Made by a program: the position numbers and the translations under genes
Shown here: in pieces, positions 1,576-26,615 of the stretch
Numbering within the stretch: position 1 is the stretch's first letter
How the letters are laid out: every line of letters begins with the position of its first letter
The notes under the pieces: generated by a model
Database searches by the model: none
The model's input: only the letters and a program-made list of their open reading frames with translations
Told to the model about the DNA's origin: nothing
IMG/VR virus record: IMGVR_UViG_3300035182_002389
Span: 96,001 to 160,000 of that record
From: a virus
Taxonomy: Duplodnaviria > Caudoviricetes
Reading direction: 5' to 3' (one strand)
Length of the DNA: 64,000 nt

Positions 1576-1708
1576 CAAGACAGGAAGAGAGCGAGAACGC
1601 TCGGGGGCTGCGCGCCCCCGAACCCCGCGCCACCTGCGGTGGGGCTCCTGTTGGGGCTCTGCCCCAAACCCCGCTGAGGGGCGCTCACAGCGCGCCCCTC
1701 AGACTCCC
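1576..1708 (-). repeat. family-1 four-hairpin element, copy 1
   Basis: TCGGGGGCTGCGCGCCCCCGAACCCCGCGCCACCTGCGGTGGGGC...TTGGGGCTCTGCCCCAAACCCCGCTGAGGGGCGC...CCCCTCAGACTCC; abuts the TAG of the upstream minus-strand gene. Confidence 0.95.
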
Positions 1709-2718
1709 TACTGCTGAAGCTCTTGCAGGCGCTGGTCGGCCATCTGCGCCAGCTCGCTGCACCCATTCGCGGCAGCCGCGTCGCGCGTCTGCTGGATGGC
1801 GCCCTGATTCTGAGAGTTCATCACTTGGTCGAGGACGTTGCGGTACGCGTCCGCGACGTAACCGTTCGTGCAGCCGACCTGGCCGAACGGCGTGTTGATG
1901 AGCGAGGCCTGCATGCGCTGCTTCGCGTACGTGGCCAGCTCGCTGCAACCGTTTGCTTGGGCGACGTTGAGCGTGTCCTGGAGCTGCGTCTGGTCGGTTG
2001 CCCGACTGACCTGATCGAGCACGCCGCGATACGCGGACGCCACGAGTCCGGCCGAACAGACGACCGGGCCGAAGGGCGTGTTGAACGCGAGCGACTGAAG
2101 CCGCTGCGTCGCTGCATCCGTGAGCGCGGGGCAGTTGTGCGACTGCGCGATGTCGATGATCTGCTGGAGCGCGTCCGCGTCCTGCGAATCGTGAATCCGG
2201 TCGAGGACGTGATCCTGGTCGTCGTACGTCTCGTTGTTCGAGCAGACGATTCGGCCCATCGGCGTCTCGATGGTGAACGCGAGCATTCGGTTGTCGATGG
2301 CCTGCGTCAGATCATCGCAGCCGAGCGATTGGGAGACGTTGCGCGCGTAGTTGAGGTCTTGCATGTTCGACGACGATCGCGCCCCGTCAAGCACGCTGCG
2401 GTAGGCGTTGAGCACGCTCCCGCTCTCACACGCGACCGGCCCAAAGGGCGTGTCGGTCGTCGCCACCGGCGTGGCCGGCGTCGGTTCGGCCGGCTTGGGC
2501 GTGTTGTGGATGACGTCGGGCTGCACGACGGGCGGGACATACGCGGGCGGCGCGGGCGGCGCAGGGAGGACGGGCGTGCCCGGGAGCTTCTGCGAGGGCA
2601 CGATGGGCGGAGCGGCTGCGGGCGCCGCCGCCTTCGACGATTTCGCGATGAGGACGACCGCTGCGATGGCCGCGATGCCGCCGCCGACGAACAGAATCTT
2701 CTTGGTGTTCGGGTCCAT
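1708..2718 (-). CDS. signal-anchored protein with four ~61-aa two-Cys helical repeats
   Basis: N-terminal ILFVGGGIAAIAAVVLIAK anchor, Pro-rich linker, four TP(F/M)GxxxC...(G/N)CxxL repeats. Confidence 0.8.
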   Translation of the reverse strand: MDPNTKKILFVGGGIAAIAAVVLIAKSSKAAAPAAAPPIVPSQKLPGTPVLPAPPAPPAYVPPVVQPDVIHNTPKPAEPTPATPVATTDTPFGPVACESGSVLNAYRSVLDGARSSSNMQDLNYARNVSQSLGCDDLTQAIDNRMLAFTIETPMGRIVCSNNETYDDQDHVLDRIHDSQDADALQQIIDIAQSHNCPALTDAATQRLQSLAFNTPFGPVVCSAGLVASAYRGVLDQVSRATDQTQLQDTLNVAQANGCSELATYAKQRMQASLINTPFGQVGCTNGYVADAYRNVLDQVMNSQNQGAIQQTRDAAAANGCSELAQMADQRLQELQQ

Positions 2719-2750
2719 GTTCTTCCTCACCGCTCTCTGATGTGCGGACA

Positions 2751-2764
2751 GCTTATCACAAGCC
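2751..2764. promoter_or_regulatory. palindromic operator-like site
   Basis: GCTTATCACAAGCC, member of the G(G/A)CTT-N5-AAGYY family. Confidence 0.6.
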
Positions 2765-2766
2765 GG

Positions 2767-3390
2767 CTACCGACCAATGGACGCGTCGTAGTCCTTCTCT
2801 TCGCGCATCGGCGGCCTGTAGTGCACGTCGACCTTGATGCCGAACTTCGCGACCAGTGCTTCGACGGCCAACTGGTCGATGGACCGCGTGCGCCGATCGA
2901 TCTTCCCCCTGAGCTGACCGCCTTGCCCGAACCGGCCGAACATGAAATGCGGGTGATGTCTCGGCAGAAAATCCGGCACGATGTAACCGCGACAGAGAGA
3001 GCCGTCCTTCTCCCAGACGTACATGTGAATGTGGTCGGGATGGCTCATCGCCGTCGATGAGGAGTTCTTCGGGTACGGCCCGTGTGCGCGTCCTTGCGGC
3101 GGTCGAGGCGTCAACAAAGGCTTGCCGCCCACCTTCAACGCGCCGGCGCCGACGATGTACTGCCCGTCCTTGCGGCTCTCGACCATCATCTGATCGGTCG
3201 GTTTCGAGGATCGCATCTCCGCCGACGCGTACGGCTCGAACATGTTGATCTCGCCGAGCACCTTCACGCGCTCTTTGCCGCGGTAGGCGATGAAGGGGAA
3301 GCGTGCGCGCACGAGCGCCGCAAGCTCAGCGTCCCGCAGCTCCTTGAACCGAAGCTGCTCGGCCGCCGAGAGGTCGTCCCAATACTTCAT
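2767..3390 (-). CDS. hypothetical protein
   Basis: 207-aa ORF; TAATCT hexamer 6 nt before the ATG. Confidence 0.7.
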   Translation of the reverse strand: MKYWDDLSAAEQLRFKELRDAELAALVRARFPFIAYRGKERVKVLGEINMFEPYASAEMRSSKPTDQMMVESRKDGQYIVGAGALKVGGKPLLTPRPPQGRAHGPYPKNSSSTAMSHPDHIHMYVWEKDGSLCRGYIVPDFLPRHHPHFMFGRFGQGGQLRGKIDRRTRSIDQLAVEALVAKFGIKVDVHYRPPMREEKDYDASIGR

Positions 3391-3436
3391 GGCGCAAGAT
3401 TACTCACAAAGCCGCGTCGCGTATACGTGCCGGCGG

Positions 3437-3451
3437 GGCTTGTGACAAGCC
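3437..3451. promoter_or_regulatory. palindromic operator-like site
   Basis: GGCTTGTGACAAGCC between divergent genes. Confidence 0.65.
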
Positions 3452-3491
3452 AGCCTTGGCATGCGTCAGGGCGCGTGCGAAGCTCTCCGCC

Positions 3492-3854
3492 ATGGCCAAG
3501 ACCTCGCTGCAACCGTGGGAGCGCAAGCTGAGCCCCGAAATCCGATCCCGCATCGAGGCGGGTCGCACCCGCGACCTGAAGGACAGGCTTCGTGCGACGT
3601 CGAACGTCATGGCCTCCACCGCCTACGCGTTCTTGGAGACCGCGAAGGAAGACCGAAAGCTCTTCGAGCTTCTCGCGAACCATTTCCACGGCGACCCCTA
3701 CTACATGAGCAAAGAGCGCGCGTGGCACGCGGCCAGCCACGTGATGCAGGCGCTGCGCGCCGAAGCCAAGAAGCTCATGAAACACGCCACGTACGCCAGC
3801 TCGATGGCGCGAGGGGCCGAGCGCAAGCTCTCGAAGCTCGGCGCGCGCCAGTAG
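3492..3854 (+). CDS. hypothetical protein
   Basis: ORF starting MAKTSLQPWERK; helical, basic. Confidence 0.65.
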   Translation: MAKTSLQPWERKLSPEIRSRIEAGRTRDLKDRLRATSNVMASTAYAFLETAKEDRKLFELLANHFHGDPYYMSKERAWHAASHVMQALRAEAKKLMKHATYASSMARGAERKLSKLGARQ

Positions 3855-3916
3855 ACGTCGACGATCGCTCCCCCATTTCGCGCCCGACTTCCGACAAGCC
3901 GTGATAGAATCAGCGG

Positions 3917-4246
3917 ATGTCGAGCCTGTCGCCGCACACCTTCACCGATTCCGATCACCACGTCCTCGACCGCGCCTCGCGCGAGTGGTGGAAGCTCGGA
4001 TGGGACTGCCTCGATTTCACGCTCTCCCACATGCGATGGGTGCGCGGTCGAGAGGGCATCGAAGTGTGGTCGACCGCGCGCGGCATCGACGTCTTCCACG
4101 TGATCGACGGTTCGCGCACCACACTTCGACCTGGAGGGTTTCGCGCGGGCAAGGCCCACGAGATCCTCAAGGTGCTCGCGCCCGTCCTCCATGCGCCGAC
4201 CTCTTCCATCGCGCCGACTTCTTCGCGCCGCGGCTCGCTGCGCTGA
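3917..4246 (+). CDS. hypothetical protein
   Basis: 109-aa ORF; TAGAAT shortly upstream. Confidence 0.6.
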   Translation: MSSLSPHTFTDSDHHVLDRASREWWKLGWDCLDFTLSHMRWVRGREGIEVWSTARGIDVFHVIDGSRTTLRPGGFRAGKAHEILKVLAPVLHAPTSSIAPTSSRRGSLR

Positions 4247-4256
4247 CGCGGGCCTC

Positions 4257-4976
4257 TCACCCCTCGACGTTGCGGAGCACGGTGTTGACGACTCGCTTGC
4301 GGTCGCGCGGCGACCAGTAGGGCGAGTAGAGACGCCATGTCTCACTCTGCTTCAGCATCACGCTCAAGCCTTCGCTCTTGCCGAACAGCTTCACGAACCG
4401 CTCGTACGCGGGGAGGATGTTCGACAGCTCGTCGAGGATGTTGATCAGGTACGCGGACACCTCTTTGCGCTGCGCGTAGTGCGTGCGCGGATCGTGCTCG
4501 ACTCTCCCTCGGGCCGCAGCGAACGCAGCGTCCGCTCCAGGGCCTGCCGTGTACGTCGGTCGAATCCCAGGGTCCGAGGCGTGACCAAGCTCGTGGATGA
4601 GCGTCTTGTAGAACTGCGAGGCGATGAGATCGCTGCCCGCAGCGGAGCGGTGAAGCTCGCTTGCGGGCACGCTGCCGTTGAACAGCAGCACGACGACGGG
4701 TTTGCCGTCGGGGGCGTGGCCGTAGCCGCCCTCGTGGACGTAGGCGCGCTCGTTCATGCGCCTCGCCAAGAGGACGATGTAGACCGTCTTCGACCATCCT
4801 CGGGCGTCGAGGATCTCGTACGGCTTGCCGGCCAAGAGCGTCTGGTCGCCGAGCGCGCCCGAATGCCCCTTCGTCTTCTCTGCGACGACGTCCTGAAGCT
4901 CTTTCGCGAGCCGCCTCGCCGAAGGCTTGTGGACCGGCAGCGTGCGGGCAAACCGATCGGCGGAAGAGTTCATCAT
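4257..4976 (-). CDS. zincin-like metallopeptidase-domain protein
   Basis: LIHELGHASD HExxH motif and downstream E (KEVSAY). Confidence 0.6.
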   Translation of the reverse strand: MMNSSADRFARTLPVHKPSARRLAKELQDVVAEKTKGHSGALGDQTLLAGKPYEILDARGWSKTVYIVLLARRMNERAYVHEGGYGHAPDGKPVVVLLFNGSVPASELHRSAAGSDLIASQFYKTLIHELGHASDPGIRPTYTAGPGADAAFAAARGRVEHDPRTHYAQRKEVSAYLINILDELSNILPAYERFVKLFGKSEGLSVMLKQSETWRLYSPYWSPRDRKRVVNTVLRNVEG

Positions 4977-5000
4977 CTCGGACTCAAGCCTATCAGAGCC

Positions 5001-5137
5001 AAATCGAATCGAGAGCGAGACGCTCGGGGGCTGCGCGCCCCCGAACCCTGCGCCACCTGCGGTGGGGCTACTGTTGGGGGCTCTGCCCCCAAACCCCCGC
5101 TGAGGGCGCTTTCAGCGCGCCCTCAGACTCCCCGCCG
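5001..5137 (-). repeat. family-1 four-hairpin element, copy 2
   Basis: Near-identical to copy 1; AAATCGAATCGAGAGCGAGACG tail; overlaps the 3' end of CDS 5068-5709. Confidence 0.95.
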
Positions 5138-5709
5138 ACATACCCCCATTCGAGGATCGAGTCGCCGTTCGTGTAGAGCGTGCGCGCGGGGACGACCTTG
5201 CTCACGATGGCGTAGTGGCCGCGCATCGGGCCTTCGCCGTGTGAGGCGGCATACGCGCGGTCGAGCGCCACCCAATCGCCCGGGTTGATGGTCGCGCGCC
5301 GAACCTTCTCGGGCGGCGGCATGGCGCGCAGTTGCGCGAGCGAGGCCACGATCGAGTCGTAGAGAGCAGATTTGGAGTGCGCGCCGTAGACAGCCCTGCG
5401 CGACGGCGGGAGCTGTCCGCGACGAAGCAGAGACGCGCGGTCGGCCTCCATCTGACGGATCTGCGCATCGCGGTTCGCGGGCAGCTTGATCGTCGCGCGG
5501 TAGATGCGCACCGGGCGGTTCGGATGGCCCCGCATGCGGCGGACAATCCCCCACGTGACGAGGTCCGTGCCGTCGCCGACGCCGTAGTACCGAGGGCCAA
5601 GCGACGAGTAGACGTCCTCAGGGTAGACGCTGCCCGCCGTGAGGTCGTGCAGCGGTGCCGCCTCGCGGCCGGGCGCTCTGTGGTCGATCCGGTAGTCGTC
5701 GTTGCTCAT
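5068..5709 (-). CDS. phage protein with YRA...INPGDWV...YA..HG...EWGY motifs (ART-like fold suspected); last ~22 aa encoded by the repeat element
   Basis: Starts MSNDDYRIDH, overlapping the stop of the RHH gene; after EWGYV the frame reads through element copy 2. Confidence 0.65.
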   Translation of the reverse strand: MSNDDYRIDHRAPGREAAPLHDLTAGSVYPEDVYSSLGPRYYGVGDGTDLVTWGIVRRMRGHPNRPVRIYRATIKLPANRDAQIRQMEADRASLLRRGQLPPSRRAVYGAHSKSALYDSIVASLAQLRAMPPPEKVRRATINPGDWVALDRAYAASHGEGPMRGHYAIVSKVVPARTLYTNGDSILEWGYVGGESEGALKAPSAGVWGQSPQQ

Positions 5710-5960
5710 GACGTCTTTCGACGAAGGATCGCGAGAAAGTAGCGCACGACATAGAGCCGCGCGCTCTCGGAGAACGTTGCGACCGAGCGGCCTTGCGGAC
5801 TTTTCGGTCGGAGCATGTCGATCTCGTTCAGGACGACGTCGATGGAGACGAGCTTGTGGCGCGCGATGGTCTCGATCGCCTCCCAGAACTCGGGCTCCAG
5901 CGACACGCTGGTGCGCTTGCCGCGAAGACTCACGTTGCGGACGTTGGCAGAGCGAGGCAT
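5706..5960 (-). CDS. ribbon-helix-helix DNA-binding protein (RHH_4-like)
   Basis: RNVSLRGKRTSVSLEPEFWEAIETIA; ATGA coupling to the upstream gene. Confidence 0.8.
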   Translation of the reverse strand: MPRSANVRNVSLRGKRTSVSLEPEFWEAIETIARHKLVSIDVVLNEIDMLRPKSPQGRSVATFSESARLYVVRYFLAILRRKTS

Positions 5961-6274
5961 CAGCGACCGATCGATCTGGCCCAGAGGTAGGTGCCCTTGG
6001 AGATGGTGTAGAAGGTGTCCCCCTTCCACGCTCGGTACTCGGACTTTTCGGCCTTCTTCTTGAGGTTGGCCTCGTAGATGCGCTGCTCGTCGCCATCCAT
6101 CCGATTGAACTTCACGCGGTCGAAGAAGTCGCGCCAGTTCGGCTTGACCTCCTCCACACGATCCGCGTACTGGCCGACCCACTCCAGCTCCGTCATCACG
6201 CCTTCGGGGAAGCGAAGCAGGCGCGCCGACGTGCCGATCGAAGAGAGTGAGGAGGAGGTCTTTCTCGAAGCCAT
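5960..6274 (-). CDS. hypothetical protein
   Basis: Starts MASRKTSS after a GAGG SD-like sequence; TGA overlaps the RHH start. Confidence 0.65.
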   Translation of the reverse strand: MASRKTSSSLSSIGTSARLLRFPEGVMTELEWVGQYADRVEEVKPNWRDFFDRVKFNRMDGDEQRIYEANLKKKAEKSEYRAWKGDTFYTISKGTYLWARSIGR

Positions 6275-6286
6275 GGAAACCTCTTG

Positions 6287-6451
6287 CGAGCGAAACGAGA
6301 GCGAGACGAGACGAGAGCGAGACGAGAGCGAGACGAGAGTGGGGGCTGCGCACCCCCACACCCCGCGCCACCTGCGGTGGGGCTACTGTTGGGGGCTCTG
6401 CCCCCAAACCCCCGCTGAGGGCGCTTTCAGCGCGCCCTCAGACTCCCGCCG
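6287..6451 (-). repeat. family-1 four-hairpin element, copy 3
   Basis: Core plus a long (GAGAC/GAGAGC)n tail; supplies the stop codon of CDS 6427-6975. Confidence 0.95.
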
Positions 6452-6975
6452 TTGCGGGCCTTGAGCGTCGCGATCTTCGACACGAGCGTGTCGTAGCCGC
6501 GCGGCGTCGGGACGGCCTTCGGAGCGGTCGCCATCATCGGACCCGGCACGCTGCTGGAGGGCGCGGCGACGGGCGCGGGGGCCTGCATGAGCACCTTGAA
6601 CTCGTCGACGACGGCCTGGAGGTTCTGCACGGCCGTCATCAGGTCGGCGATGACCTTCGAGAAGTCGGGGTTGCTCTGCTTCAGGTCGGCGGCGGCCTGC
6701 ACGGAGGCCTGCAAGGCGTCGACGGCGCTGTTGACCGCGAGAACGCTCTCGTCGAACTTCGCCTGCGCGACGGCCTGCTTGTCGGCCGGGATGGCGGGCT
6801 TGATGCTGCCGAACACGACCTCGGCGATCGAGAGGATGGTGCTGATCGACTGGATCAGGCTCTCGGTCTGCGCGACCGGGTCCTTCTGGAAGTTCGACCA
6901 CCACGTCGAGCAACTGGTGAGCGAGAGCACGGGGACGATGAGCGCGATGGCGGTGAACTTGTAGAGCTTTCGCAT
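6427..6975 (-). CDS. putative lipoprotein
   Basis: MRKLYKFTAIALIVPVLSLTSC lipobox-like signal; amphipathic helices; C-terminal GGSLRAR-stop comes from element copy 3. Confidence 0.7.
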   Translation of the reverse strand: MRKLYKFTAIALIVPVLSLTSCSTWWSNFQKDPVAQTESLIQSISTILSIAEVVFGSIKPAIPADKQAVAQAKFDESVLAVNSAVDALQASVQAAADLKQSNPDFSKVIADLMTAVQNLQAVVDEFKVLMQAPAPVAAPSSSVPGPMMATAPKAVPTPRGYDTLVSKIATLKARNGGSLRAR

Positions 6976-7029
6976 GGTAGGGCAAGCCTATCCGCAAAGG
7001 CGGTGCGCATCTACGATCGCGCCGAAAAT

Positions 7030-7665: not shown

Positions 7666-7733
7666 GAGGTCAGATTATCCGCGAAGGCGGCGCACATCCA
7701 TGGCGCGACGAGCTTGTGGTAAGTTCGAGCCCC

Positions 7734-8222: not shown

Positions 8223-8231
8223 AGCTTCGCC

Positions 8232-8733: not shown

Positions 8734-8754
8734 GTTGCGGCGGCGCGCCTCAGC

Positions 8755-9015: not shown

Positions 9016-9061
9016 ACGAGCGAGGGTAGATCGTCAAAGCGGAAAGTTCAACGAAGCGGGC

Positions 9062-9126: not shown

Positions 9127-9390
9127 ATGTCCAAAGACAAGGCCAAGGCGCAGCTCGTTGACGAACTGATGCACCGTTACAAGCACATGACCGACCTCGA
9201 AGCCTACGATCTCGTCGAGCGCTTCGAGCGCGTCATCAAGCCGAACCTGCCCGCCGCCGCGAACTTCATCCGGCTCGAAGACGCGGCCCTCGCGGCGAGC
9301 TTGGATCTGGGGCTCGGCACTTCCTACGGAACGAGCTACCGACACCGCGGAACGCCGACGAGTCTCAGCGTCCCTCACCGGCGCCGCTGA
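9127..9390 (+). CDS. hypothetical protein
   Basis: 87-aa helical ORF. Confidence 0.55.
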   Translation: MSKDKAKAQLVDELMHRYKHMTDLEAYDLVERFERVIKPNLPAAANFIRLEDAALAASLDLGLGTSYGTSYRHRGTPTSLSVPHRRR

Positions 9391-9502
9391 CGTTCGACTT
9401 GCGGCAAGCCGCATGCGACGATGCGGGCCATGGCTGCCAAACGCCGCACGAAGGAGTGCGGCGGCGCAGTTCCGCCTCACGCCTCGTGATACGATCGCGA
9501 AC

Positions 9503-15311: not shown

Positions 15312-15464
15312 CAAATCCGAATCCGAACCGCTGAACGAGACGAGCGAGAGAGCGGGGGCTGCGCACCCCCACACCCCGCGCCACCTGCGGTGGGGCCACT
15401 GTTGGGGGCTCTGCCCCCAAACCCCCGCTGAGGGCGCTCTCGGCGCGCCCTCAGACTCCTGCCG
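15312..15464 (-). repeat. family-1 four-hairpin element, copy 4
   Basis: Core plus CAAATCCGAATCCGAACC...GAGACGAGCGAGAG tail, between divergent genes. Confidence 0.95.
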
Positions 15465-15481: not shown

Positions 15482-16060
15482 ATGGCCAAGCGGGCGATCC
15501 TCCCCTACGTGCTCGGCGGAGCGGCGCTCCTCGGCGTCATCGTTCTTGCACGCCGAAGCAGCGCCCAGGCGCTCGCCCCAAGTCCGAGCGTGCGCACGTG
15601 GCCCGTGGTCCCCAACCGGGGCACCATCAGCGGGTTTGGGGCTCCGCGCCCTGCGGGAAAGTACCCCGCGCGCTACCACGCCGCCGTGGACGTCGGCGCG
15701 CAGGACGGGGACAAGGTCGTCGCGATCGACGACGGCGAAGTGCTCAAGCTCGTCACGGGCTACCAGATTGGCGCAGGCCTTCAAGCGGTCGCCATCCGTC
15801 ACCCCGACGCCGACTACATCTACGCCGAGATCCAGGTGACGGCGGTGCCCGGCCAGCGTGTCAAGGCGGGCGACGTCATCGGCGTCGTGCGCCAGAACGA
15901 CTCTGGTCCGGGGCACCAGATGCTTCACCTCGAAGCGTGGCAGACCGGGATGGTGCCGGACGCTTTCAAACCGTGGTACGTGGGCCAGGCCGCGCCGCCG
16001 GGCCTGCTCGACGTAGGCAAGATTCTCGCGCCCCTCGCGAACACGGGAGTGAAGCCGTGA
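15482..16060 (+). CDS. membrane-anchored M23 peptidase-like protein
   Basis: HAAVD (HxxxD), VxxGQRVKAGDVIG, MLHLE in place of HLHFE; N-terminal TM. Confidence 0.8.
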   Translation: MAKRAILPYVLGGAALLGVIVLARRSSAQALAPSPSVRTWPVVPNRGTISGFGAPRPAGKYPARYHAAVDVGAQDGDKVVAIDDGEVLKLVTGYQIGAGLQAVAIRHPDADYIYAEIQVTAVPGQRVKAGDVIGVVRQNDSGPGHQMLHLEAWQTGMVPDAFKPWYVGQAAPPGLLDVGKILAPLANTGVKP

Positions 16061-16221
16061 CCTTCATCCGAGCTGTTGAGAAGATCGCTCGGGGGGTTGC
16101 GCACCCCCCGAACCCCCGCGCCACCTGCGGTGGGACTTTTGTTGGGGCTCTGCCCCAAACCCTGCTGAGGGGCGCTTCCAGCGCGCCCCTCAGACTCCCT
16201 GCCGCGGGAGTGAAGCCGTGA
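16044..16221 (-). mobile_element. family-1 element, copy 5 (16061-16204), flanked by a 17-bp direct repeat
   Basis: CGGGAGTGAAGCCGTGA at 16044-16060 and 16205-16221. Confidence 0.85.
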
Positions 16222-16997: not shown

Positions 16998-17160
16998 GTC
17001 TCCCCCTTCCCGTTCCCGTTCCCGTTCCCAGCGTGCCGAAGGCGCGCGTTCCCCCTTCCCGAATCCCGCGCCGAAGGCGCGTCTCGGTCCTGCGAGCCCC
17101 CACAAGACGAGATCGGGAACGCTCGCTGCGCGAGCTGGCAACGGGAACGGGGACGGAAGC
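16998..17160. repeat. inverted pair of family-2 hairpin-(GGGAAC)n elements
   Basis: Minus-strand copy (TTCCCG)n...GCGTGCCGAAGGCGCGC and plus-strand copy CAAGACGAGATCGGGAAC-GCTCGCTGCGCGAGC-TGGCAACGGGAAC. Confidence 0.85.
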
Positions 17161-17511
17161 ATGAGAAAGCTCACCTTCTCGCACGACGACCCGTGGCCGG
17201 ACGGGCTCGTCGTGAAGTTCTACCTCGTGCCCTTTCCTTACCGCCGCAAGCCCGTCATCACCGTGCGCGAGGAGGCGGCAAGGCCGCAGCGCATCGCAGA
17301 CGTCCCCATGACTCTGCTCAACGCGTCACAGCGCGGCGTGACGGACACGGGGCTCGCCAAAGCCCACAAGGTGACCGCCCTTCCTCGCGCGTACGAGGAA
17401 GAGGACGGCCGCTACACCATTGCCGACGGCCACCACCGCGTCGTTGCCGCGTGGCTGCGCGGCGAAGATCAGGTCCGCATTCGCATCATCGGACTGCCTC
17501 GCAAGAAGTGA
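17161..17511 (+). CDS. ParB/Sulfiredoxin-like domain protein
   Basis: GRYTIADGHHRVVAAWLRG. Confidence 0.7.
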   Translation: MRKLTFSHDDPWPDGLVVKFYLVPFPYRRKPVITVREEAARPQRIADVPMTLLNASQRGVTDTGLAKAHKVTALPRAYEEEDGRYTIADGHHRVVAAWLRGEDQVRIRIIGLPRKK

Positions 17512-17657
17512 GACGAGATCGGGAACAGGAACGCGCCTTCGGCGCTGGGAACGGGAACGGGAACGGGCGAGACAAGACGAAAAGGACGGCCTGCGGCCGA
17601 GCACGGGCTTCGCCCGAGGACGCGCCTTCAGCGCGAGGACGGGCTTCGCCCGAGGGT
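17511..17657 (+). repeat. family-2 element followed by a family-3 tandem mini-hairpin array (4 units)
   Basis: GAGACGAGATCGGGAACAGGAAC-GCGCCTTCGGCGC-T(GGGAAC)3GGG, then AG(G/C)AC-hairpin-G units; between convergent genes. Confidence 0.9.
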
Positions 17658-18230
17658 TCAATGATAGTCGTACTCGATGCCCTGTGCGCGCATCGCGCGA
17701 CGCAGGTCTTCGATGCCCATGCGACCGGCCGCGGCGAGATTCTTCTGGAGCCACGCGTAAAAGCGCTCGGCGTCCTTCTTCTTGACGGCGTAGTAGAGGG
17801 TGTCCTGGTAGAGACTCGTGCCGCCTTGCAGAAGCGAGCTTCGATCGAGCGGCCAGCTTGACCGGATCGAGAAGCGGTGCGGGGTCGCGTCGATCGAGAT
17901 GCGGTCGCCGTTGTCGAGCTTGTGGCTCAGGTGAATCGCGGTCGACATCGGCTCGACGTCGATCGCACGAAGCTCGCGCTCCTCGACGTGGAACCCGTAG
18001 CGGTGCGCGAGAGCTTGGGCGTACGAGCGAGCGTGCGCGTACGTCGGCGCTTGCAGCAGGATGTCGCCGAGACGGTCGAGCGCCGACCCCTTCTCCGACG
18101 ACGCGGTGAGCTGCAAGATCCGCTTGCCGCGCTTGCCTGCGAGGGCCGTGTCGGTGACGACCAGCGAGTTCGCATAGCGATGGACACGCAGCGTGCCCAC
18201 GTGTGCGGTACGACCGATTTCGATGGGCAT
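17658..18230 (-). CDS. hypothetical protein
   Basis: 190-aa ORF; stop abuts the family-3 array. Confidence 0.7.
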   Translation of the reverse strand: MPIEIGRTAHVGTLRVHRYANSLVVTDTALAGKRGKRILQLTASSEKGSALDRLGDILLQAPTYAHARSYAQALAHRYGFHVEERELRAIDVEPMSTAIHLSHKLDNGDRISIDATPHRFSIRSSWPLDRSSLLQGGTSLYQDTLYYAVKKKDAERFYAWLQKNLAAAGRMGIEDLRRAMRAQGIEYDYH

Positions 18231-19535: not shown

Positions 19536-19559
19536 GGCGTCGAGCGTATTCTTCCGTTC

Positions 19560-19574
19560 GGCTTGCGACAAGTC
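19560..19574. promoter_or_regulatory. palindromic operator-like site
   Basis: GGCTTGCGACAAGTC between divergent genes. Confidence 0.65.
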
Positions 19575-19600
19575 GATAAGGCTCGTGATACGATCCCGGG

Positions 19601-21377: not shown

Positions 21378-21381
21378 GTCC

Positions 21382-21906: not shown

Positions 21907-22268
21907 CGCCTCGGCCGCTTGAGATCGACGATTTCGAGCACCTTGATGCGATTCGGATCGAACATGATCCAGTTGTCGTCGAGGTGCACGCTGTCGTAGC
22001 CGAGCTGCGTGAGCTGATCGAGCAGGTATCGATCGTACTCTTTCCAGCCCGCGGTCTTCTGCGCCCGGAGCACGACCTTCATCAGATAGTTGAGACTGCC
22101 TGCGCCGCTCTCGCCGCGCAGGATCACGTCCTTGTCCTCGCTGAACCAGAAGATCCCGCCCATCGCGGAGAAGCTCCGCTGAAAGCGTCGAATGGGGTGC
22201 GAGCCGCCATGATAGGCGATAACCGTTCGCTCGGGCGCGAGGCTCGTTCCGAGGGAGGCCTTGCTCAT
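21903..22268 (-). CDS. ADP-ribosyltransferase-fold protein (ART-PolyVal-like)
   Basis: AYHGG...GIFWFSED...LGYDSV...FDPNRIK. Confidence 0.65.
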   Translation of the reverse strand: MSKASLGTSLAPERTVIAYHGGSHPIRRFQRSFSAMGGIFWFSEDKDVILRGESGAGSLNYLMKVVLRAQKTAGWKEYDRYLLDQLTQLGYDSVHLDDNWIMFDPNRIKVLEIVDLKRPRR

Positions 22269-23350
22269 CGACCGGACCCCGGCAGAGGACGGCGCTTCCA
22301 ACCCTTCACGCGGGCGGCGTCTTCGGCGATCTCCTTCTGGATCGTCTCGATGCTGCGGTCGATCTTGCGCATCCGAGAGCCCCACTCGCCGTCGTAGCGC
22401 CGGTCCGAAGGTGTGATGACCTCCTTCTGGCCGCGGTAGTTCTCGATGGTCAGAGAGGGCTTCAGGCGCAGCTCGGCGCGGTTCTCTTGCATCCGCGCCT
22501 CGGTCGGCCGAAGGACCTTCGCGATGTACTCGATCGTGCCTTGCGGGCTCAGCTCAAAAGGCGGGCAGTGAAAACCGAAGCAGGGGCCCGTGTGCCACGA
22601 CATTCCCTGCGCGCCCTTGTAGCGCGTGCCGCTCACGCTCCACCCGTGGCGCATCATCATGCGCTCGTGGAGCTTCACGTTGCTGAAGCACGCGGGGCAA
22701 GTGCCGGTGTCTTCGAGCGAGCGCGCGCTCACGGGACGAAGGGCCGCAGCGACCGACTCTGCCCCAAGCTTCGTGATGGCTTCCGCAGCCTTTGCCTTCA
22801 ACCCGCTCTTGTACGCGAAGGTCCAGAACCTATCGGAGCCCGTTTCGGTGAGCGGCTCGACGCGGCCCGTGTAACTCAGCTTCGGCGTGAAGACGACGTC
22901 TCCCGATTCGGTGCGCACTCGATACCCGGGCATCCCGCGCCACACCTCGCGCAGCTCGACGCCGTGCCTGCCGCCCACGTACGGCCCGATACCTCGCGTC
23001 GCCATCTGCCCCGCGCCGAGCGCGATGGGAGGGCCCTTGCTGCTCCACGAGAGGAGGGTCTGCCGAAGGATCGTGACGAGGGTCGCGGCCTGCTCGCGCG
23101 TGCCGACCAGCGCGATGATCGGGTCCTTGCCGCCGAGGCCGACGAAATCCGCGGCAATGCCCGCGTGCGCGGCGACGGGTTTGAGGAACGCGCCCGCCTT
23201 CTCCCCGTCGAGCGACGCGGGCACGACCTCTTGCCCGATCGCCCAGCCGAGCAAGGGAAGCGCCTCGGCCAAGGCGGCGGGATCGAACCCGCCCTTGATC
23301 CCTTTGGCCGCTTTCGTGAGAAAAGCGAGCGCGTTCTTCGAGAGCGTCAT
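22265..23350 (-). CDS. hypothetical protein with CxxC...H...C zinc site
   Basis: GTCPACF...MRHGW...HTGPCFG. Confidence 0.7.
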   Translation of the reverse strand: MTLSKNALAFLTKAAKGIKGGFDPAALAEALPLLGWAIGQEVVPASLDGEKAGAFLKPVAAHAGIAADFVGLGGKDPIIALVGTREQAATLVTILRQTLLSWSSKGPPIALGAGQMATRGIGPYVGGRHGVELREVWRGMPGYRVRTESGDVVFTPKLSYTGRVEPLTETGSDRFWTFAYKSGLKAKAAEAITKLGAESVAAALRPVSARSLEDTGTCPACFSNVKLHERMMMRHGWSVSGTRYKGAQGMSWHTGPCFGFHCPPFELSPQGTIEYIAKVLRPTEARMQENRAELRLKPSLTIENYRGQKEVITPSDRRYDGEWGSRMRKIDRSIETIQKEIAEDAARVKGWKRRPLPGSGR

Positions 23351-23360
23351 GGCGGGTCTT

Positions 23361-24008
23361 TCAGAGGAAGGCGGCGACGGGGTAGCTGCCGAGATAGTCG
23401 CTCTGCACGGCGTCGTAGTCGATGTTGATCCCCGCCGCGATCGTTCGGTTGCCGGGGTAGAGCTGGAGCATCTGGTAGCCGCGCACGTCGACGTCGGGCG
23501 CGCGGCCGGCCGTCTTCCAGTAGCGCGAGACCGAGAGCGAGTGGTAGAGCTGGCTGCTCGTCAGCGGCACGCCGGGCTCGCAGTAGATGCCGAGGGCCGC
23601 GCCGAACATCCCGCCCGCGACTGCCCCCTTGTACCAGGCGTTCGCGTAGGCGATGCACGCCTCCGCCGTCCCTGCATTGGCCAAATCCAACCAGAGACAA
23701 CCTCCCGCGGGATAGCCCATCGAGATGGCGTACGAAGCTGCGGCTTGGCCGTCCGCGAACCCGATCGACTCGCTCCAGCCGCTCGTGCGCCCGAACTGCA
23801 CGAGCATCACGCCGAGCCCCGCTTGGGTGAGCGCGGCCAGCTCCGTTTTTCCGATCGCGAACGGCGACGACTGCCCCGCGAGCGGGACGTACCGCACGCC
23901 GAACTTCATGCCGGCCTTCACGAGCGTTGCGGCCTGGGCCGCGCTGAGCGCCTCGATCGTGTCGAACCCGAGCATGCCCACGGAGAGAGGCTTCAGGGAA
24001 AGGGTCAT
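23361..24008 (-). CDS. DUF1906-like glycoside hydrolase (GH25-related TIM barrel)
   Basis: GFDT...GMKFGVRYV...GFADGQAA...GYP..LWLDL; GGAGG SD. Confidence 0.75.
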   Translation of the reverse strand: MTLSLKPLSVGMLGFDTIEALSAAQAATLVKAGMKFGVRYVPLAGQSSPFAIGKTELAALTQAGLGVMLVQFGRTSGWSESIGFADGQAAASYAISMGYPAGGCLWLDLANAGTAEACIAYANAWYKGAVAGGMFGAALGIYCEPGVPLTSSQLYHSLSVSRYWKTAGRAPDVDVRGYQMLQLYPGNRTIAAGINIDYDAVQSDYLGSYPVAAFL

Positions 24009-24048
24009 CGTCGTTCCTCCTTCAATCCACCGCGGCCGATCGTACCAC

Positions 24049-24063
24049 GGCTTATCGCAAGCC
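24049..24063. promoter_or_regulatory. palindromic operator-like site
   Basis: GGCTTATCGCAAGCC between divergent genes. Confidence 0.65.
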
Positions 24064-24091
24064 GAGGCGATTCGTGCGACCATTGCGATCG

Positions 24092-24598
24092 ATGAACGCG
24101 TTTCGCTACACCCTCGACAAGACGAGGCGCATCGCGCGCGTACAGCTCTCGGGCGACGACCAGGCCGTCGCCCTCGCGTCGTTCGAGAAGTCGGAGGAGT
24201 TCCCGTTCGGCAAGATGTGCGTTCGGCTTCTTCGGCGCGGCAGCGCGATGTACGTCGGCGAGATGCAGCTCAACCCTCGTAGGCCTCACGTCCGCGACAT
24301 GGACCCTACCTGTCTCAACCACTACGAGCGGCTCCGGCCGGCCCTCTACCGCGCCAACGTCGCCCTCTACCGCGTGAGGTCTTCGGACATCTACCTCACC
24401 CATCTCTGGCGCCACGGCTACGGCGTGCTCATGTACGCGGCGGCGCTTCTGCTCGCCGACATGCAAGGGACCGGCATCGGATCGGATGAGTGCTTCTACG
24501 GCTCGACGAGTCGGCGCGCCGGGCGCGTCTGGGAATCGCGGCGCCTCGCTTCGATCGCCGACGTGATGGGCGACATCGCGTTTCTCAAGCGGCGCTGA
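24092..24598 (+). CDS. GNAT-like protein, paralog family A
   Basis: LRPALY...YRVRSSDI...WRHGYGVLMYAAAL..ADMQGTGIGSDEC; close paralog of 21382. Confidence 0.7.
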   Translation: MNAFRYTLDKTRRIARVQLSGDDQAVALASFEKSEEFPFGKMCVRLLRRGSAMYVGEMQLNPRRPHVRDMDPTCLNHYERLRPALYRANVALYRVRSSDIYLTHLWRHGYGVLMYAAALLLADMQGTGIGSDECFYGSTSRRAGRVWESRRLASIADVMGDIAFLKRR

Positions 24599-24616
24599 GG
24601 TGATACGGTGACCGCC

Positions 24617-24952
24617 ATGGGCAAGAGCCTCCAGAAGTACGCGTCGAGCTTGCGGCGCCCGCGGTTCGTGCACGACTGCAACCGCTGCATCTTCCTCGGA
24701 GGCTCCACGATCGAGGGCGGTCGGCCGGCCGACTTCTACTGGTGCCCCGATCGGCGCAACGAGACCATGAGCAGCATGATCGCGCGCTACGGCGACGACG
24801 GGCCCGAGTATCTCTCGTCCTCGCCGCCCGAGGCCTTCGCCGACCCGCTGTACCTGCTCCAGAAGCGGAAATGGTACAGGACTCTTCTGCGTCGCGCGCA
24901 TCGCGCGGGGCTCTACGCGAACAAGCACAACTACAACCTCTCGGAGCCTTGA
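24617..24952 (+). CDS. hypothetical protein
   Basis: HDCNRCIFLG motif; GTGATACGGT 7 nt before the ATG. Confidence 0.65.
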   Translation: MGKSLQKYASSLRRPRFVHDCNRCIFLGGSTIEGGRPADFYWCPDRRNETMSSMIARYGDDGPEYLSSSPPEAFADPLYLLQKRKWYRTLLRRAHRAGLYANKHNYNLSEP

Positions 24953-25494
24953 TGAGCGACCTCAAGCAAATCCAAGAGGCCATCTGGGGGGATCGCGAGA
25001 CCCTCTCACACCTCGAAGGCGCCTACCGAAACTTCTTTCAGACGCGCGACGTCGGCGTCTTGCGACCGTCCAAGACCCTCGTGTACGCGCTCGCGAAGAA
25101 GTACGGCGCCAGCTTCGACGTCGTCCAGGCCGCCATCGGCAAGCTCGTCGCCAACGTCCAGTACGAGATGATGGTCGACTACGTCGCGCGTCTGCCCCAC
25201 ATCCGAGGCCATCTTCGCGAACTCGCCCTTCTCACCTACTCGCCCGATGGCGCGCTCGGGTCGATGAAGAAGCTCACGCCCGAGGTCGAAGAGAGCCTCC
25301 GCTCTTTCTACGCGCCCCTTCGCTGGAAGAGCCCCATGGGCTTGGAGCTGCTCAGCGGCGCGGTCTCGAAGGAGAAGCGCAAGCTCCAAGGCCTTTCGAG
25401 CATGGGCCGAACCGCTCCTTCACCGTTCTCGGAGCCCGCGTCTCTCGGTCCCGTCACCTACCCCGCGCGCCGCAAACCTTCCAGCTCAAACTGA
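24952..25494 (+). CDS. hypothetical protein
   Basis: TGATG-coupled ORF. Confidence 0.65.
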   Translation: MSDLKQIQEAIWGDRETLSHLEGAYRNFFQTRDVGVLRPSKTLVYALAKKYGASFDVVQAAIGKLVANVQYEMMVDYVARLPHIRGHLRELALLTYSPDGALGSMKKLTPEVEESLRSFYAPLRWKSPMGLELLSGAVSKEKRKLQGLSSMGRTAPSPFSEPASLGPVTYPARRKPSSSN

Positions 25495-25505
25495 ATCGGA
25501 GTCAC

Positions 25506-25727
25506 ATGGACAAGCTCACTCTTCTCGGTCTTGGCCTCATGGGCGCAGGCGTCGCGACCAAGCTCATCGAGCCGCCCAAGATGGGACAGTCCGCAGAAGT
25601 CATGCGCGGATACGGCGCGCTCGAAATCGTTCTCATCGGCGGCGGCGCGTCGCTCGCCTTCTACGGCGCGTTCGTGAAGGGCAAGACGCCCATGCTCACG
25701 AGCGGACCGCCGTCGTCCTACCGCTGA
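25506..25727 (+). CDS. small two-TM membrane protein
   Basis: Two hydrophobic Gly-rich helices. Confidence 0.65.
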   Translation: MDKLTLLGLGLMGAGVATKLIEPPKMGQSAEVMRGYGALEIVLIGGGASLAFYGAFVKGKTPMLTSGPPSSYR

Positions 25728-25731
25728 ACCG

Positions 25732-26076
25732 TCAGTAGTTGTCGATGTAGCGCTTCGCTTCGCGCAACGTCGCCAGGTACTTGCCGCCGCCCGAGTCGGG
25801 GTAGTGAACGCACCAGCCGTGCTTGTCGTGCTCGATCTCCCACCCCTTGTAGATGGTGATCTTCCCACGCTCAGGCACAAACGTGTAGCTCGGGAGCCGT
25901 GCTGTGAGAGACGCCTTTCGGGCGGCCTCCTCACGCTCCGCGGCTTCGCGCGCAGGGCGCTCTGCCTCCCAGCGGAGGTCGGCGAGTCGATCGGCCTCAT
26001 CGGCCGCGGCCAGCTCCGCGGGCGTGTAGCGTGCCGAAGAGACGGAGCGGCTCACAGGACGCTTTCGGATCGTCAT
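25732..26076 (-). CDS. hypothetical protein
   Basis: Charged helix plus a WEIEH...WCVH...EAKRYID C-terminal domain. Confidence 0.6.
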   Translation of the reverse strand: MTIRKRPVSRSVSSARYTPAELAAADEADRLADLRWEAERPAREAAEREEAARKASLTARLPSYTFVPERGKITIYKGWEIEHDKHGWCVHYPDSGGGKYLATLREAKRYIDNY

Positions 26077-26080
26077 CGAG

Positions 26081-26440
26081 TCATCTCCCCGAGGAGTGAA
26101 CATTGAGCGTCACCATCACGACCTTCTCGCCGCCGTAGTCGTACGTGTCGACGCTCGGCGCATACTTCGCGACGGCCCCTCGCGCGTCCGTGTGGACCTT
26201 GCGCACGCCGGCGGCCCTCAGCGTTTTTGCGATCCAGTTGGCCGCGCGCAGCTCCAACTTCGCGTCGCCCGAGTCGACGCGGATGCCGCCCGCGTCGTAC
26301 CCTTCGACGTGCAGGGTCTCGGCCGAGAGTGCGACGAGGCGCACGCGGCTGCGAGGCTTCATGTAGCCGGCCTTCACCATCGCAGCGTCGAGCCTGCGTT
26401 GAAGTTCCATGCGGGCGAGGATGGTTTCGGCGCGACTCAT
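26081..26440 (-). CDS. hypothetical protein
   Basis: 119-aa ORF; TACGCT 6 nt before the ATG. Confidence 0.65.
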   Translation of the reverse strand: MSRAETILARMELQRRLDAAMVKAGYMKPRSRVRLVALSAETLHVEGYDAGGIRVDSGDAKLELRAANWIAKTLRAAGVRKVHTDARGAVAKYAPSVDTYDYGGEKVVMVTLNVHSSGR

Positions 26441-26466
26441 CCTCGAAGCGTAGACGATCCCGATCC

Positions 26467-26480
26467 GCTTGTCGCAAGCC
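26467..26480. promoter_or_regulatory. palindromic operator-like site
   Basis: GCTTGTCGCAAGCC. Confidence 0.65.
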
Positions 26481-26490
26481 GCACAGCACG

Positions 26491-26615
26491 GAGAACGAGA
26501 ATCGCTCGGGGGCTACGCGCCCCCGAACCCCGCGCCACCTGCGGCGGGGCTATTGTCGGGGCTCTGTCCCGAACCCCGCTGAGGACGCTCACGGCGCGCC
26601 CTCAGACTCCCGCCG
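26491..26615 (-). repeat. family-1 four-hairpin element, copy 6
   Basis: Most diverged copy, with compensatory stem changes (TCGGGG..TCCCGA) and a TAC loop. Confidence 0.9.

What the first reader, a model, noticed from the sequence alone, without database searches (positions are those of the whole stretch)
1576..26615. Family-1: six copies of a ~110-bp four-hairpin DNA element with GNA triloops and a simple-repeat tail
Seen: copies at 1576, 5001, 6287, 15312, 16061 and 26491, all in the same orientation regardless of flanking genes. Each has four stems with compensatory changes (TCGGGGG/CCCCCGA versus GTGGGGG/CCCCCAC; TTGGGG/CCCCAA versus TCGGGG/TCCCGA). Loops 1 and 2 read TGC or TAC on the plus strand, which is GCA or GTA on the minus strand, so only the middle base varies. 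One end is sharp (minus strand CGGC-GGGAG-T-CTGAGGG). The other is a variable-length microsatellite tail ((GAGAC/GAGAGC)n, AATCG). No transposase is present in the window. Known: C(GNA)G triloops are exceptionally stable in single-stranded DNA (N4 vRNAP promoters, ssDNA origins, REP elements mobilised by HUH/RAYT enzymes). Inferred: a non-autonomous mobile element or ssDNA signal that works on the bottom strand.
Basis: partly seen in the sequence, partly recalled or inferred. Interest (0 to 1): 0.85.

Follow-up and report, generated by a model that had tools for sequence, protein, structure and literature searches.

The report
Modular hairpin repeats in giant virus
A gene-less stretch of about 115-165 bases made of four GC-rich hairpins is scattered a dozen times through a 202-kb uncultured bacterial virus, sits inside genes as well as between them, lies at joints where related viruses differ in gene content, and shares its last two hairpins with repeats in distant bacteria; it looks like a selfish REP/RPE-type repeat of an uncatalogued family rather than a proven single-strand signal.

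Summary
All six copies are real, lie on the + strand and fold into four hairpins whose arms change together. The whole 202-kb virus record holds 12 copies: 7 full (+), 3 full variants with other first two hairpins (-), one cut by the contig end, and one partial copy in frame inside a gene.

I read it as modular, non-autonomous, REP/BIME/RPE-like selfish DNA.
- One copy is a 32-residue insert in a vWA protein that no homologue has.
- Two copies are flanked by 17-bp and 55-bp duplications.
- A 52%-identical relative has none in 22 syntenic kb.
- A 93-96% identical strain keeps three sites. It lacks the element at one site and has only leader+H1, joined to a different gene cassette, at another.
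- Hairpins 3-4 carry an invariant foot, GCTGAGGG...CCCTCAGACTCC. The foot recurs in Cyanobacteria (271 copies in one MAG), Clostridia, Rokubacteria and phage contigs, including a microvirus.
- Foot-bearing hairpins in bacterial genomes show no orientation bias to neighbouring genes.

The HUH/RAYT idea is not supported. The virus has no Y1, Y2, RT, GIY-YIG, HNH, integrase, DDE or TnpB gene, and 3 of 5 repeat-bearing bacterial genomes lack Y1.

A strong strand polarity is real and unexplained. The way the element spreads is inferred, not shown. Earlier notes of this scan had already listed these repeats on this same genome.

The parts
1576..1713 (+). Copy 1: leader, H1 1601-1621, H2 1627-1645, H3 1651-1667, H4 1674-1702, 3' tag. 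It lies between two - strand genes. The stop codon of gene 1708-2718 lies in the tag.
   Evidence: A 93-96% identical strain (L147) has an 87-aa ORF here and no element.
5001..5137 (+). Copy 2: leader, H1 5024-5044, H2 5050-5068, H3 5074-5092, H4 5100-5126, tag.
   Evidence: The related strain (L146; also a contig of run X5) keeps leader+H1 up to 5047 and then continues into a different 954-nt cassette.
5068..5137 (-). The last 22 codons and the stop of - strand gene 5068-5709 are encoded by the element.
   Evidence: my own gene call
6287..6451 (+). Copy 3 (reference copy): microsatellite leader 6286-6338, H1 6339-6359, H2 6365-6383, H3 6389-6407, H4 6415-6441, tag 6437-6451.
   Evidence: The orthologous copy in L146 has a much shorter leader.
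6427..6451 (-). The last 7 codons and the stop of - strand gene 6427-6975 lie inside H4 and the tag.
15312..15464 (+). Copy 4: leader with ATCCGA repeats, H1 15352-15372, H2 15378-15396, H3 15402-15420, H4 15428-15454, tag. It lies between divergent genes.
   Evidence: An orthologous copy is present in the related strain (L145).
16062..16204 (+). Copy 5: leader, H1 16089-16111, H2 16118-16136, H3 16142-16158, H4 16165-16193, tag. It lies between two + strand genes.
   Evidence: In L145 the same left flank and element are joined to a homologue of the right flank of the copy at record position 58859.
16044..16060 (+). Left copy of a 17-bp direct repeat flanking copy 5. It holds the stop of the M23-peptidase gene.
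   Evidence: Local alignment score 34 against a shuffle maximum of 23.
16205..16221 (+). Right copy of the 17-bp direct repeat. It holds a Shine-Dalgarno-like GGGAG and the GTG start of the next ORF.
26491..26615 (+). Copy 6, the most diverged: leader, H1 26506-26526, H2 26532-26550, H3 26556-26572, H4 26579-26605, tag. It lies between - strand genes.

Best explanation
Family 1 is a composite, gene-less, GC-rich hairpin repeat. It behaves as selfish or neutral DNA of the REP/BIME/RPE kind and has no enzyme of its own.

Anatomy. A purine-rich, slippage-prone leader is followed by four independent hairpin modules and a fixed 3' tag (ACTCC + 0-2 nt + GCCG).

Shown:
1. The units entered this virus lineage by insertion, both between genes and in frame within genes.
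2. The hairpins are exchangeable modules. Five combinations exist.
3. The H3-H4 pair is nearly identical between otherwise different elements on opposite strands.
4. The H4 hairpin, often together with an H3-like hairpin, has an invariant foot and tag. It belongs to a repeat family spread across bacterial phyla and phage contigs, with no orientation preference to neighbouring genes.
5. In related strains, differences in gene content begin exactly at the elements.

Inferred:
1. Copies arise while DNA is single-stranded during replication or repair, when the hairpins extrude.
2. New copies or modules are laid down in one of two ways. One is template switching between hairpin loci, which would give variable or absent flanking duplications, joints at hairpin borders and microsatellite leaders. 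The other is a host-supplied hairpin-specific enzyme that reads the invariant foot and tag.
3. The one-strand polarity reflects that replication-linked step.
4. Once dispersed, the copies act as portable homology at which gene cassettes are exchanged.
For: Insertion.
- The copy at record 9291-9403 is a 32-aa in-frame insert in a vWA protein. It is absent from the eight homologues aligned, of 41-60% identity.
- The copy at 3987-4106 lies in frame in a CxxC ORF.
- Two - strand genes end inside copies.
- A 17-bp perfect duplication and a 55-bp duplication (5 mismatches) flank two copies. Eight of the other nine show none; the partial copy at 9291 went untested when the script stopped.

Not inherited in place.
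- None occurs in 22 kb of a syntenic 52%-identical relative.
- The element is absent at the 1576 locus of a 93-96% identical strain.
- Only leader+H1 remains at the 5001 locus of that strain.

Modularity.
- H4 x10, H3 x10, H2 x9, H1 x8, H1' x4, H2' x3, in five combinations.
- H3-H4 of a - strand variant copy is 97% identical to that of a + strand copy. Two + strand copies share only 85%.

Spread beyond the virus.
- The foot and tag pattern hits more than 120 bacterial loci and 6 IMG/VR contigs.
- Copy numbers are 271, 19, 19, 12 and 1 in five genomes, against 0 for the reversed control.
- Over 50 distinct variants, the variable upper stem extends 3.3 bp against 0.7 bp in shuffles.
- Flanking-gene orientation is unbiased and neighbours are housekeeping genes.

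No enzyme in cis. Y1, Y2, RVT_1, GIY-YIG, HNH, Phage_integrase, rve, DDE_Tnp_1 and TnpB all give no hit in six-frame searches of the record.
Against: - No clean empty site, with flanks joined seamlessly, was found. At the one site where the element is absent, another small gene stands in its place.
- No excision or insertion joint appears in four metagenome runs, although these are contigs that break at the repeats.
- Three of five sites compared with the near strain are conserved, so there is no sign of current activity.
- In the cyanobacterial MAG, the high copy number is explained by a TIR-MITE that merely carries the hairpin pair. The hairpin itself need not be what moves.
- An invariant foot across phyla argues for a sequence-specific reader that I could not identify.
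- The perfect strand polarity could equally mean a selected function.
Confidence: 0.55

Rival explanations
1. A selected DNA-level signal read on one strand. It could be a single-strand initiation (priming) site, or a polar sequence that tells a replication, recombination or packaging motor which way it is travelling. Hairpins would form on the exposed strand and recruit a viral or host protein.
For: - All 7 full copies are on + (two-sided binomial p about 0.016).
- Families 1, 2 and 3 share a purine leader. All 24 leader-bearing units lie on +, and 8 of them sit between - strand genes. The leader grouping was made after seeing the data.
- The four leaderless variants at the left 12 kb point the other way.
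- The H4 foot hairpin also occurs in a Microviridae (ssDNA phage) contig.
- GC skew changes sign near 115-125 kb of the record.
Against: - Copies lie in frame inside ORFs and supply C-termini.
- A 52%-identical relative lacks them over 22 syntenic kb, and a near strain lacks or truncates them.
- The 143-202 kb part of the record has none.
- Both strands fold equally well.
- The flip in orientation does not coincide with the skew switch.
- In bacteria the hairpin rides inside MITEs.
Confidence: 0.17
2. An RNA element: a transcript-end stabiliser, terminator or processing site for viral mRNAs, comparable to REP stabilisers or T7 RNase III sites.
For: - Most copies sit just after a stop codon.
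- The hairpins are very stable.
- In 8 of 12 copies the strand that starts with the tag complement is the mRNA sense strand.
- Some Rokubacteria copies are conserved at orthologous gene ends and are followed by a T-run.
Against: - Orientation follows the genome strand, not the gene.
- In bacteria orientation to flanking genes is random: 14/12 co-directional, 15/11 convergent/divergent.
- There is no U-tract in the virus copies.
- There is no Rfam match at gathering or at relaxed thresholds.
- No RNA run holds the virus.
Confidence: 0.1
3. A REP- or PATE-type derivative of an HUH system (RAYT or IS200/IS605 TnpA). The enzyme would bind the H4 foot and cut in the tag on single-stranded DNA, supplied in trans by the host.
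For: - The hairpin has an invariant foot, a conserved tail of about 8-14 nt, and a sharp element end there. This is the geometry known for HUH ends (established for IS608 and relaxases; my own knowledge).
- There is strand polarity.
- Y1 genes are present in the two cyanobacterial genomes that carry it.
Against: - No Y1 or Y2 gene occurs in the virus.
- No Y1 occurs in both Oscillospiraceae MAGs or in the Rokubacteria MAG that carry the hairpin (incomplete genomes).
- There is no GTAG or CGTC tag (sequence, against PMC3733652).
- No recurring gene lies next to copies.
- Duplication lengths are variable, which peel-and-paste transposition does not make.
Confidence: 0.1
4. A SINE-like retro-copy made by target-primed reverse transcription. 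On this reading the tag end is the fixed 5' end, the microsatellite is the 3' tail, and truncated copies have lost the 5' part.
For: - One end is sharp and the other is a simple-repeat tail.
- Flanking duplications vary in length: 0, 17 and 55 bp.
- The two truncated copies keep the tail side.
Against: - There is no RT in the virus.
- The tail length changes at a fixed locus between strains, which indicates slippage after insertion.
- Variant copies have no tail.
- The modules shuffle internally.
Confidence: 0.03

Closest known systems
REP / BIME elements of Proteobacteria and other phyla (GTAG- and CGTC-tagged palindromes; PMC3733652)
   Same: - Short GC-rich hairpins in many intergenic copies.
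- Hairpins combine into mosaics.
- One end of the unit carries a fixed tag.
- They often lie just after genes.
   Different: - The tag is ACTCC(C)..GCCG after the hairpin, not GTAG or CGTC.
- No RAYT was found.
- There are four different hairpins in a fixed order plus a microsatellite leader.
- The carrier is a virus.
- In the virus all full copies are on one strand.
Rickettsia palindromic elements (RPEs; cited in PMC3733652, otherwise my own knowledge)
   Same: Palindromic elements of about 100-150 bp with no gene, inserted in frame into protein-coding genes that stay open, as well as between genes.
   Different: - No sequence relation.
- Here only 2 of 12 copies lie within ORFs and 2 more supply C-termini.
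- The carrier is a virus.
- The build is modular, from several hairpins.
PeSL cassettes of T4-type phages (PMC2839356, PMC4122927)
   Same: Repeated stem-loop motifs in the plastic regions of a large phage genome. Insertions, deletions and replacements of small genes between near-identical phages begin and end at them.
   Different: - PeSLs are promoter plus terminator motifs co-oriented with the genes. These units ignore gene orientation and contain no recognisable promoter.
- PeSLs are not found inside ORFs or in bacterial genomes.
MITEs (for example Nezha in cyanobacteria)
   Same: Non-autonomous and high copy. In the cyanobacterial MAG the H3-H4-like pair sits in the centre of a unit of about 240 bp with terminal inverted repeats.
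   Different: The virus copies have no terminal inverted repeats and no fixed-length target duplication.
Single-strand initiation signals and primosome assembly sites of ssDNA phages and plasmids (G4 and phiX174 type; my own knowledge)
   Same: Clusters of about 100 nt of several hairpins that act on one DNA strand only, hence strictly polar.
   Different: - No sequence similarity.
- Not tested functionally.
- Such signals are not expected inside ORFs or to vary between near-identical strains.

Membership tests
REP (GTAG/CGTC super-families) with RAYT | A GTAG or CGTC tetranucleotide directly at one foot of the hairpin | tested here: not met
   The feet read GCTGAGGG / CCCTCAGAC (H4), TTGGGG (H3), CCACC (H2) and TCGGGGG (H1). 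The only GTAG is a stop codon at copy 1.
REP (GTAG/CGTC super-families) with RAYT | A RAYT (Y1 HUH, PF01797) gene in the same genome | tested here: not met
   No hit in the virus at E <= 1. Absent from 3 of 5 carrier bacterial MAGs. The host genome is unknown.
IS200/IS605 gene-less derivatives (PATE) | Similar subterminal hairpins at both ends, and TnpA or TnpB in the genome | tested here: not met
   The two ends are unlike: a leader against H4 plus tag. PF01797 and PF07282 give no hit.
MITE | Terminal inverted repeats and a fixed-length target-site duplication | tested here: not met
   No TIR in the virus copies. Duplications are absent in 8 of the 11 copies (one more untested), and are 17 bp and 55 bp in the other two. 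The feature is met only by the cyanobacterial carrier unit.
RPE-like in-frame palindromic elements | The element lies in frame in an ORF that stays open, and homologues lack the insert | tested here: met
   A 32-aa insert in the vWA protein is absent from the eight homologues aligned. A second in-frame copy lies in ORF 3855-4319 of the record; homologues of that ORF were not found.
Rho-independent terminator | A GC hairpin directly followed by a T/U run | tested here: not met
   No T-run follows any of the four hairpins on either strand in the virus copies.
Any Rfam RNA family | A covariance-model score at or above the gathering threshold | tested here: not met
   There is no match at the elements. 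The best relaxed hit is 18 bits against a threshold of 90. There is none in 18 foreign loci.
Integron attC | One long imperfect hairpin with R''/R' core sites (GTT crossover), and an IntI gene | tested here: not met
   The unit has four separate hairpins and no GTTRRRY core. PF00589 gives no hit.
PeSL-type recombination cassettes | Strain-specific gene insertions or replacements bounded by the repeat | tested here: met
   The joint with a different cassette lies exactly after H1 at the 5001 locus. The right flank is swapped at the 16061 locus. An element or an ORF alternates at the 1576 locus.
PeSL-type recombination cassettes | The motif contains an early promoter and is co-oriented with the genes | tested here: not met
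   Four of seven full copies are antisense to both neighbouring genes. No promoter test was made.

The most novel reading that the evidence does not exclude
The H3-H4 double hairpin, with its invariant foot GCTGAGGG/CCCTCAGAC and tag ACTCC, is an undescribed mobile DNA module. It is shared by bacteria of several phyla, by dsDNA phages and by a microvirus. A still unknown strand-specific, hairpin-reading enzyme or replication step recognises it. In this giant tailless virus, this module and two other leader-plus-hairpin families are laid down only on one strand, so they record or serve the direction of replication or packaging.
Probability: 0.22. Interest if true: 0.8.

Novelty: new variant of a known kind. 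Interest (0 to 1): 0.6.

Why it matters
Selfish palindromic repeats are well known in bacteria but hardly described in viruses. In-frame palindromic inserts are a curiosity known mainly from Rickettsia.

This 202-kb virus carries three hairpin families. The one examined here shows four things:
- It has inserted into coding sequence.
- Its hairpins behave as interchangeable modules.
- It lies at the joints of gene-cassette differences between strains, so it may be an engine of viral mosaicism.
- It shares a module, identical at the hairpin foot, with repeats in Cyanobacteria, Clostridia, Rokubacteria and a microvirus.

If a specific enzyme reads that foot, this would be a new and very widespread mobile-DNA system with phages as carriers between phyla. 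If the strand polarity is functional, it gives a handle on how a giant tailless virus replicates or packages its DNA.

Tried and rejected
- Rfam at gathering and relaxed thresholds on the window, one copy and 18 foreign loci: nothing.
- blastn of a copy against 50,697 GenBank phages: no match.
- Full-text search for the 12-mer foot and tag and its complement: only unrelated PCR primers.
- Earlier-findings look-up by sequence: nothing.
- Six-frame searches of the virus for Y1_Tnp, Y2_Tnp, RVT_1, GIY-YIG, HNH, Phage_integrase, rve, DDE_Tnp_1 and the TnpB zinc ribbon: all negative.
- Search for a gene recurring next to the bacterial copies, by clustering 724 nearby ORFs: only ordinary genes.
- RNAalifold on the seven full copies gave a long-range structure caused by MAFFT misplacing indels. 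I set it aside in favour of per-copy folds.
- Flanking-duplication search: significant in only 2 of the 10 copies scored. The script stopped at the 3689 copy, whose duplication I read by eye.
- Pattern scan of metagenomes for H2+H3: 5 of 7 hits were unrelated terminator-like hairpins.
- Relatives of the virus could not be drawn. The 160-kb relative's record is not held. DNA of two closer relatives was unavailable.
- Reads: only Logan contigs were available. They break at the repeats and show cross-joins between copies, which are assembly effects. No clean deletion of an element was seen.
- GC skew does not line up with the orientation flip.
- Homologues of the small CxxC ORF were not found in the relatives' loci.
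- Chi-like or KOPS-like readings of GCTGAGGG and GGGAAC were considered. They were left as speculation for lack of any test.

Full report
WHAT IS THERE

The window is bases 96,001-160,000 of a 202,518-bp IMG/VR virus record with 65% G+C. CheckV puts it at 94% complete, and no end repeats were found. Earlier notes of this scan call it a giant tailless virus of Myxococcota. I did not test that.

A profile built from them scores each at nhmmer E = 1e-33 to 1e-47. It also finds six further copies in the rest of the record:
- a seventh full copy at record position 58,859 (+);
- three full-length variants at 3,689, 3,987 and 11,256 (-);
- one copy cut by the left contig end, where the assembly breaks in a poly-G run inside hairpin 3;
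- a partial copy at 9,291-9,403 (+).

ANATOMY

Each full copy has four parts.
- A purine-rich leader. It consists of repeats of GAGAC, GAGAGC, ATCCGA or AATCG (TRF period 11 x4 at 6296-6339).
- Four separate hairpins. H1 is a G-run, a loop beginning CTGCGC, and a C-run. H2 is CCACC-TGC-GGTGG. H3 is TTGGGG(G), a CTCTG loop, and (C)CCCCAA. H4 has the foot CTGAGGG/CCCTCAG with a GC-rich top.
- C-rich linkers between the hairpins.
- A fixed tag, ACTCC plus 0-2 nt plus GCCG, after which similarity stops abruptly.

As single-stranded DNA the copies fold with z = -2.6 to -5.4 against dinucleotide shuffles. This holds about equally for both strands, so folding energy does not say which strand matters.

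The arms co-vary. The foot pairs of H1 and H3 change on both sides. The G- and C-runs of H1 (4/5/6) and H3 (4/5) change length in step in every copy, and those of H4 (3/4) do so in all but the 26491 copy, whose H4 left arm carries a mismatch.

IT IS MODULAR

An inventory by module gives H4 x10, H3 x10, H2 x9, H1 x8, H1' x4 and H2' x3. Five combinations occur:
- H1-H2-H3-H4: seven copies, all +;
- H1'-H2'-H3-H4: three copies, all -;
- H1'-H2-H3...: the copy at the contig end;
- H1-H2-H3*: the copy inside a gene;
- leader+H1 alone: in a related strain.

The H3-H4 pair of a - strand variant is 97% identical to that of the + strand copy at 16061. Two + strand copies share only 85%. So H3-H4 is exchanged independently of H1-H2.

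IT WAS INSERTED

The partial copy lies in frame in an 800-aa vWA-type protein. The eight homologues aligned, including the closest at 52-60% identity, lack exactly these 32 residues.

The copy at 3,987-4,106 lies in frame in a small CxxC protein. Two - strand genes of the window take their last 22 and 7 codons from the element.

The copy at 16061 is flanked by a perfect 17-bp duplication. The left copy carries the stop of the upstream gene. The right copy carries the ribosome site and GTG start of the downstream one.

The copy at 3,689 is flanked by a 55-bp duplication of a gene start with 5 mismatches. The stop of the fused upstream frame overlaps the GTG start of the intact gene.

Eight of the other nine copies show no duplication, and the partial copy at 9291 was not scored because the script stopped. 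The length is therefore variable, unlike a transposase footprint.

COMPARISON WITH RELATIVES

A relative with 52% protein identity has no copy in 22 kb that is syntenic with the left end of the record, where this virus has five.

Fragments of a 93-96% identical strain from another metagenome (L145, L146, L147) cover five sites.
- Three sites are filled in the same way.
- At the 6287 site the leader is far shorter, which indicates slippage after insertion.
- At the 5001 site only leader+H1 is present. Immediately after H1, the strain continues into an unrelated 954-nt cassette with a ParB-like ORF. A contig of run X5 shows the same break.
- At the 16061 site the element joins the same left flank to a homologue of the right flank of the copy at 58,859.
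- At the 1576 site there is no element. An 87-aa ORF stands in its place.

So the copies are not fixed landmarks, and differences in gene content start at them. However, I found no seamless empty site and no excision joint.

BEYOND THE VIRUS

An exact-pattern scan for the H4 foot and tag with a free top found 6 IMG/VR contigs (38-71% G+C; one has a Microviridae capsid gene).

Whole-genome counts are 271 in one cyanobacterial MAG, 12 in a related one, 19 and 19 in two Oscillospiraceae MAGs, and 1 in a Rokubacteria MAG. The reversed control pattern gives 0.

Among 50 distinct variants the free top still pairs: 3.3 extra base pairs against 0.7 in shuffles, and 84% have at least 2. In several Clostridia, in cyanobacteria and in the virus, an H3-like hairpin and the same C-rich linker precede H4.

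Orientation relative to flanking genes is random. Neighbours are ordinary genes.

In the cyanobacterium the pair sits in the middle of a unit of about 240 bp with terminal inverted repeats. Another element has inserted into the H4 foot in some copies. There, the carrier MITE explains the copy number.

I found no description of this hairpin in Rfam, in the searchable literature or in earlier notes.

ENZYMES

Six-frame searches of the whole virus record find no Y1 or Y2 HUH transposase, reverse transcriptase, GIY-YIG, HNH, tyrosine recombinase, rve or DDE transposase, or TnpB. Y1 is present in the two cyanobacterial carriers. It is absent from both Oscillospiraceae MAGs and the Rokubacteria MAG, all of which are incomplete genomes. 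The HUH/RAYT proposal therefore has geometry in its favour (foot, tail and a sharp end) but no gene.

POLARITY

The seven full copies are all on +, although four lie between - strand genes, one lies between divergent genes and two lie between + genes.

The virus's two other hairpin families begin with the same purine leader, (A/G)AGACGAGA(T/A)CG. All 24 leader-bearing units of the three families are on +, and 8 of them sit between - strand genes. The leaderless partners of family 2 and the leaderless family-1 variants are on -.

I made this grouping after seeing the data, so its p-value should not be taken at face value. The bias is nevertheless far beyond chance. It does not match the GC-skew switch near 115-125 kb. 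I cannot explain it. Replication-coupled insertion and a selected polar signal both remain open.

VERDICT

The best reading, at about 0.55, is a modular, non-autonomous, REP/BIME/RPE-like selfish hairpin repeat of an uncatalogued family. It entered this virus by insertion and now lies at recombination joints.

The rivals are:
- a one-strand DNA signal (0.17);
- an RNA end or processing element (0.10);
- an HUH-dependent REP or PATE (0.10);
- a retro-copy (0.03).

How it spreads is inferred, not shown.

Noticed in passing
whole record; in the window e.g. 17102-17165, 17508-17569, 17575-17658, 28520-28583, 29673-29767, 30547-30609, 46182-46238: The three hairpin-repeat families share a purine leader, (A/G)AGACGAGA(T/A)CG. 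All 24 leader-bearing units lie on the + strand, and 8 of them sit between - strand genes. Family 2 often occurs as an inverted pair, with a leaderless - copy followed by a leader-bearing + copy.
   Followed up: partly
L127:3644-3910 (record 3,644-3,910): A 55-bp duplication of a gene start brackets a variant copy. The upstream duplicate is fused in frame to the element. Its stop overlaps the GTG of the intact gene (GTGA), which looks like translational coupling that rescues the interrupted gene.
   Followed up: partly
Its sequence is unrelated to family 1. I only folded it (-40 kcal/mol).
   Followed up: partly
L003:3804-3832 (IMG/VR contig of 4,456 bp, 43% G+C): A Microviridae-like contig (Phage_F capsid, E = 3e-46) carries the GC-rich H4 foot and tag hairpin in the spacer upstream of the capsid gene. 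The tag-complement strand is the coding (packaged) strand.
   Followed up: partly
G001 (cyanobacterial MAG JBCDEB01), e.g. L010, L072, L095: A MITE of about 240 bp with terminal inverted repeats carries the hairpin pair in its centre (271 hairpin hits in 7.3 Mb against 12 in a related MAG). In some copies a second element with its own inverted ends has inserted into the H4 foot, with GCTGAGGG on both sides.
   Followed up: partly
window 30-1020 compared with L147:2559-2585: The 93-96% identical strain lacks about 990 nt that hold two small - strand genes here. This is another cassette-sized difference in this region, and its joints were not examined.
   Followed up: no
record 1-80 (L127): The contig starts with a 20-nt homopolymer run inside hairpin 3 of an element. 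The record's left end is therefore an assembly break at a repeat, not a genome end.
   Followed up: no
whole record: GC skew is near zero or slightly positive over 0-115 kb and strongly negative (-0.05 to -0.13) over 120-202 kb. Genes are on the + strand in both the first 35 kb and the last 70 kb, so the switch is not explained by transcription direction.
   Followed up: no
L022/L053 and L027/L033 (Rokubacteria MAGs): Single H4-type hairpins sit at orthologous gene ends in different Rokubacteria genomes. One pair is followed by a T-run, which suggests that some copies have been co-opted as terminators.
   Followed up: no
window 49865-49936: A tRNA gene (Rfam 59 bits) is the only Rfam match in the window.
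   Followed up: no
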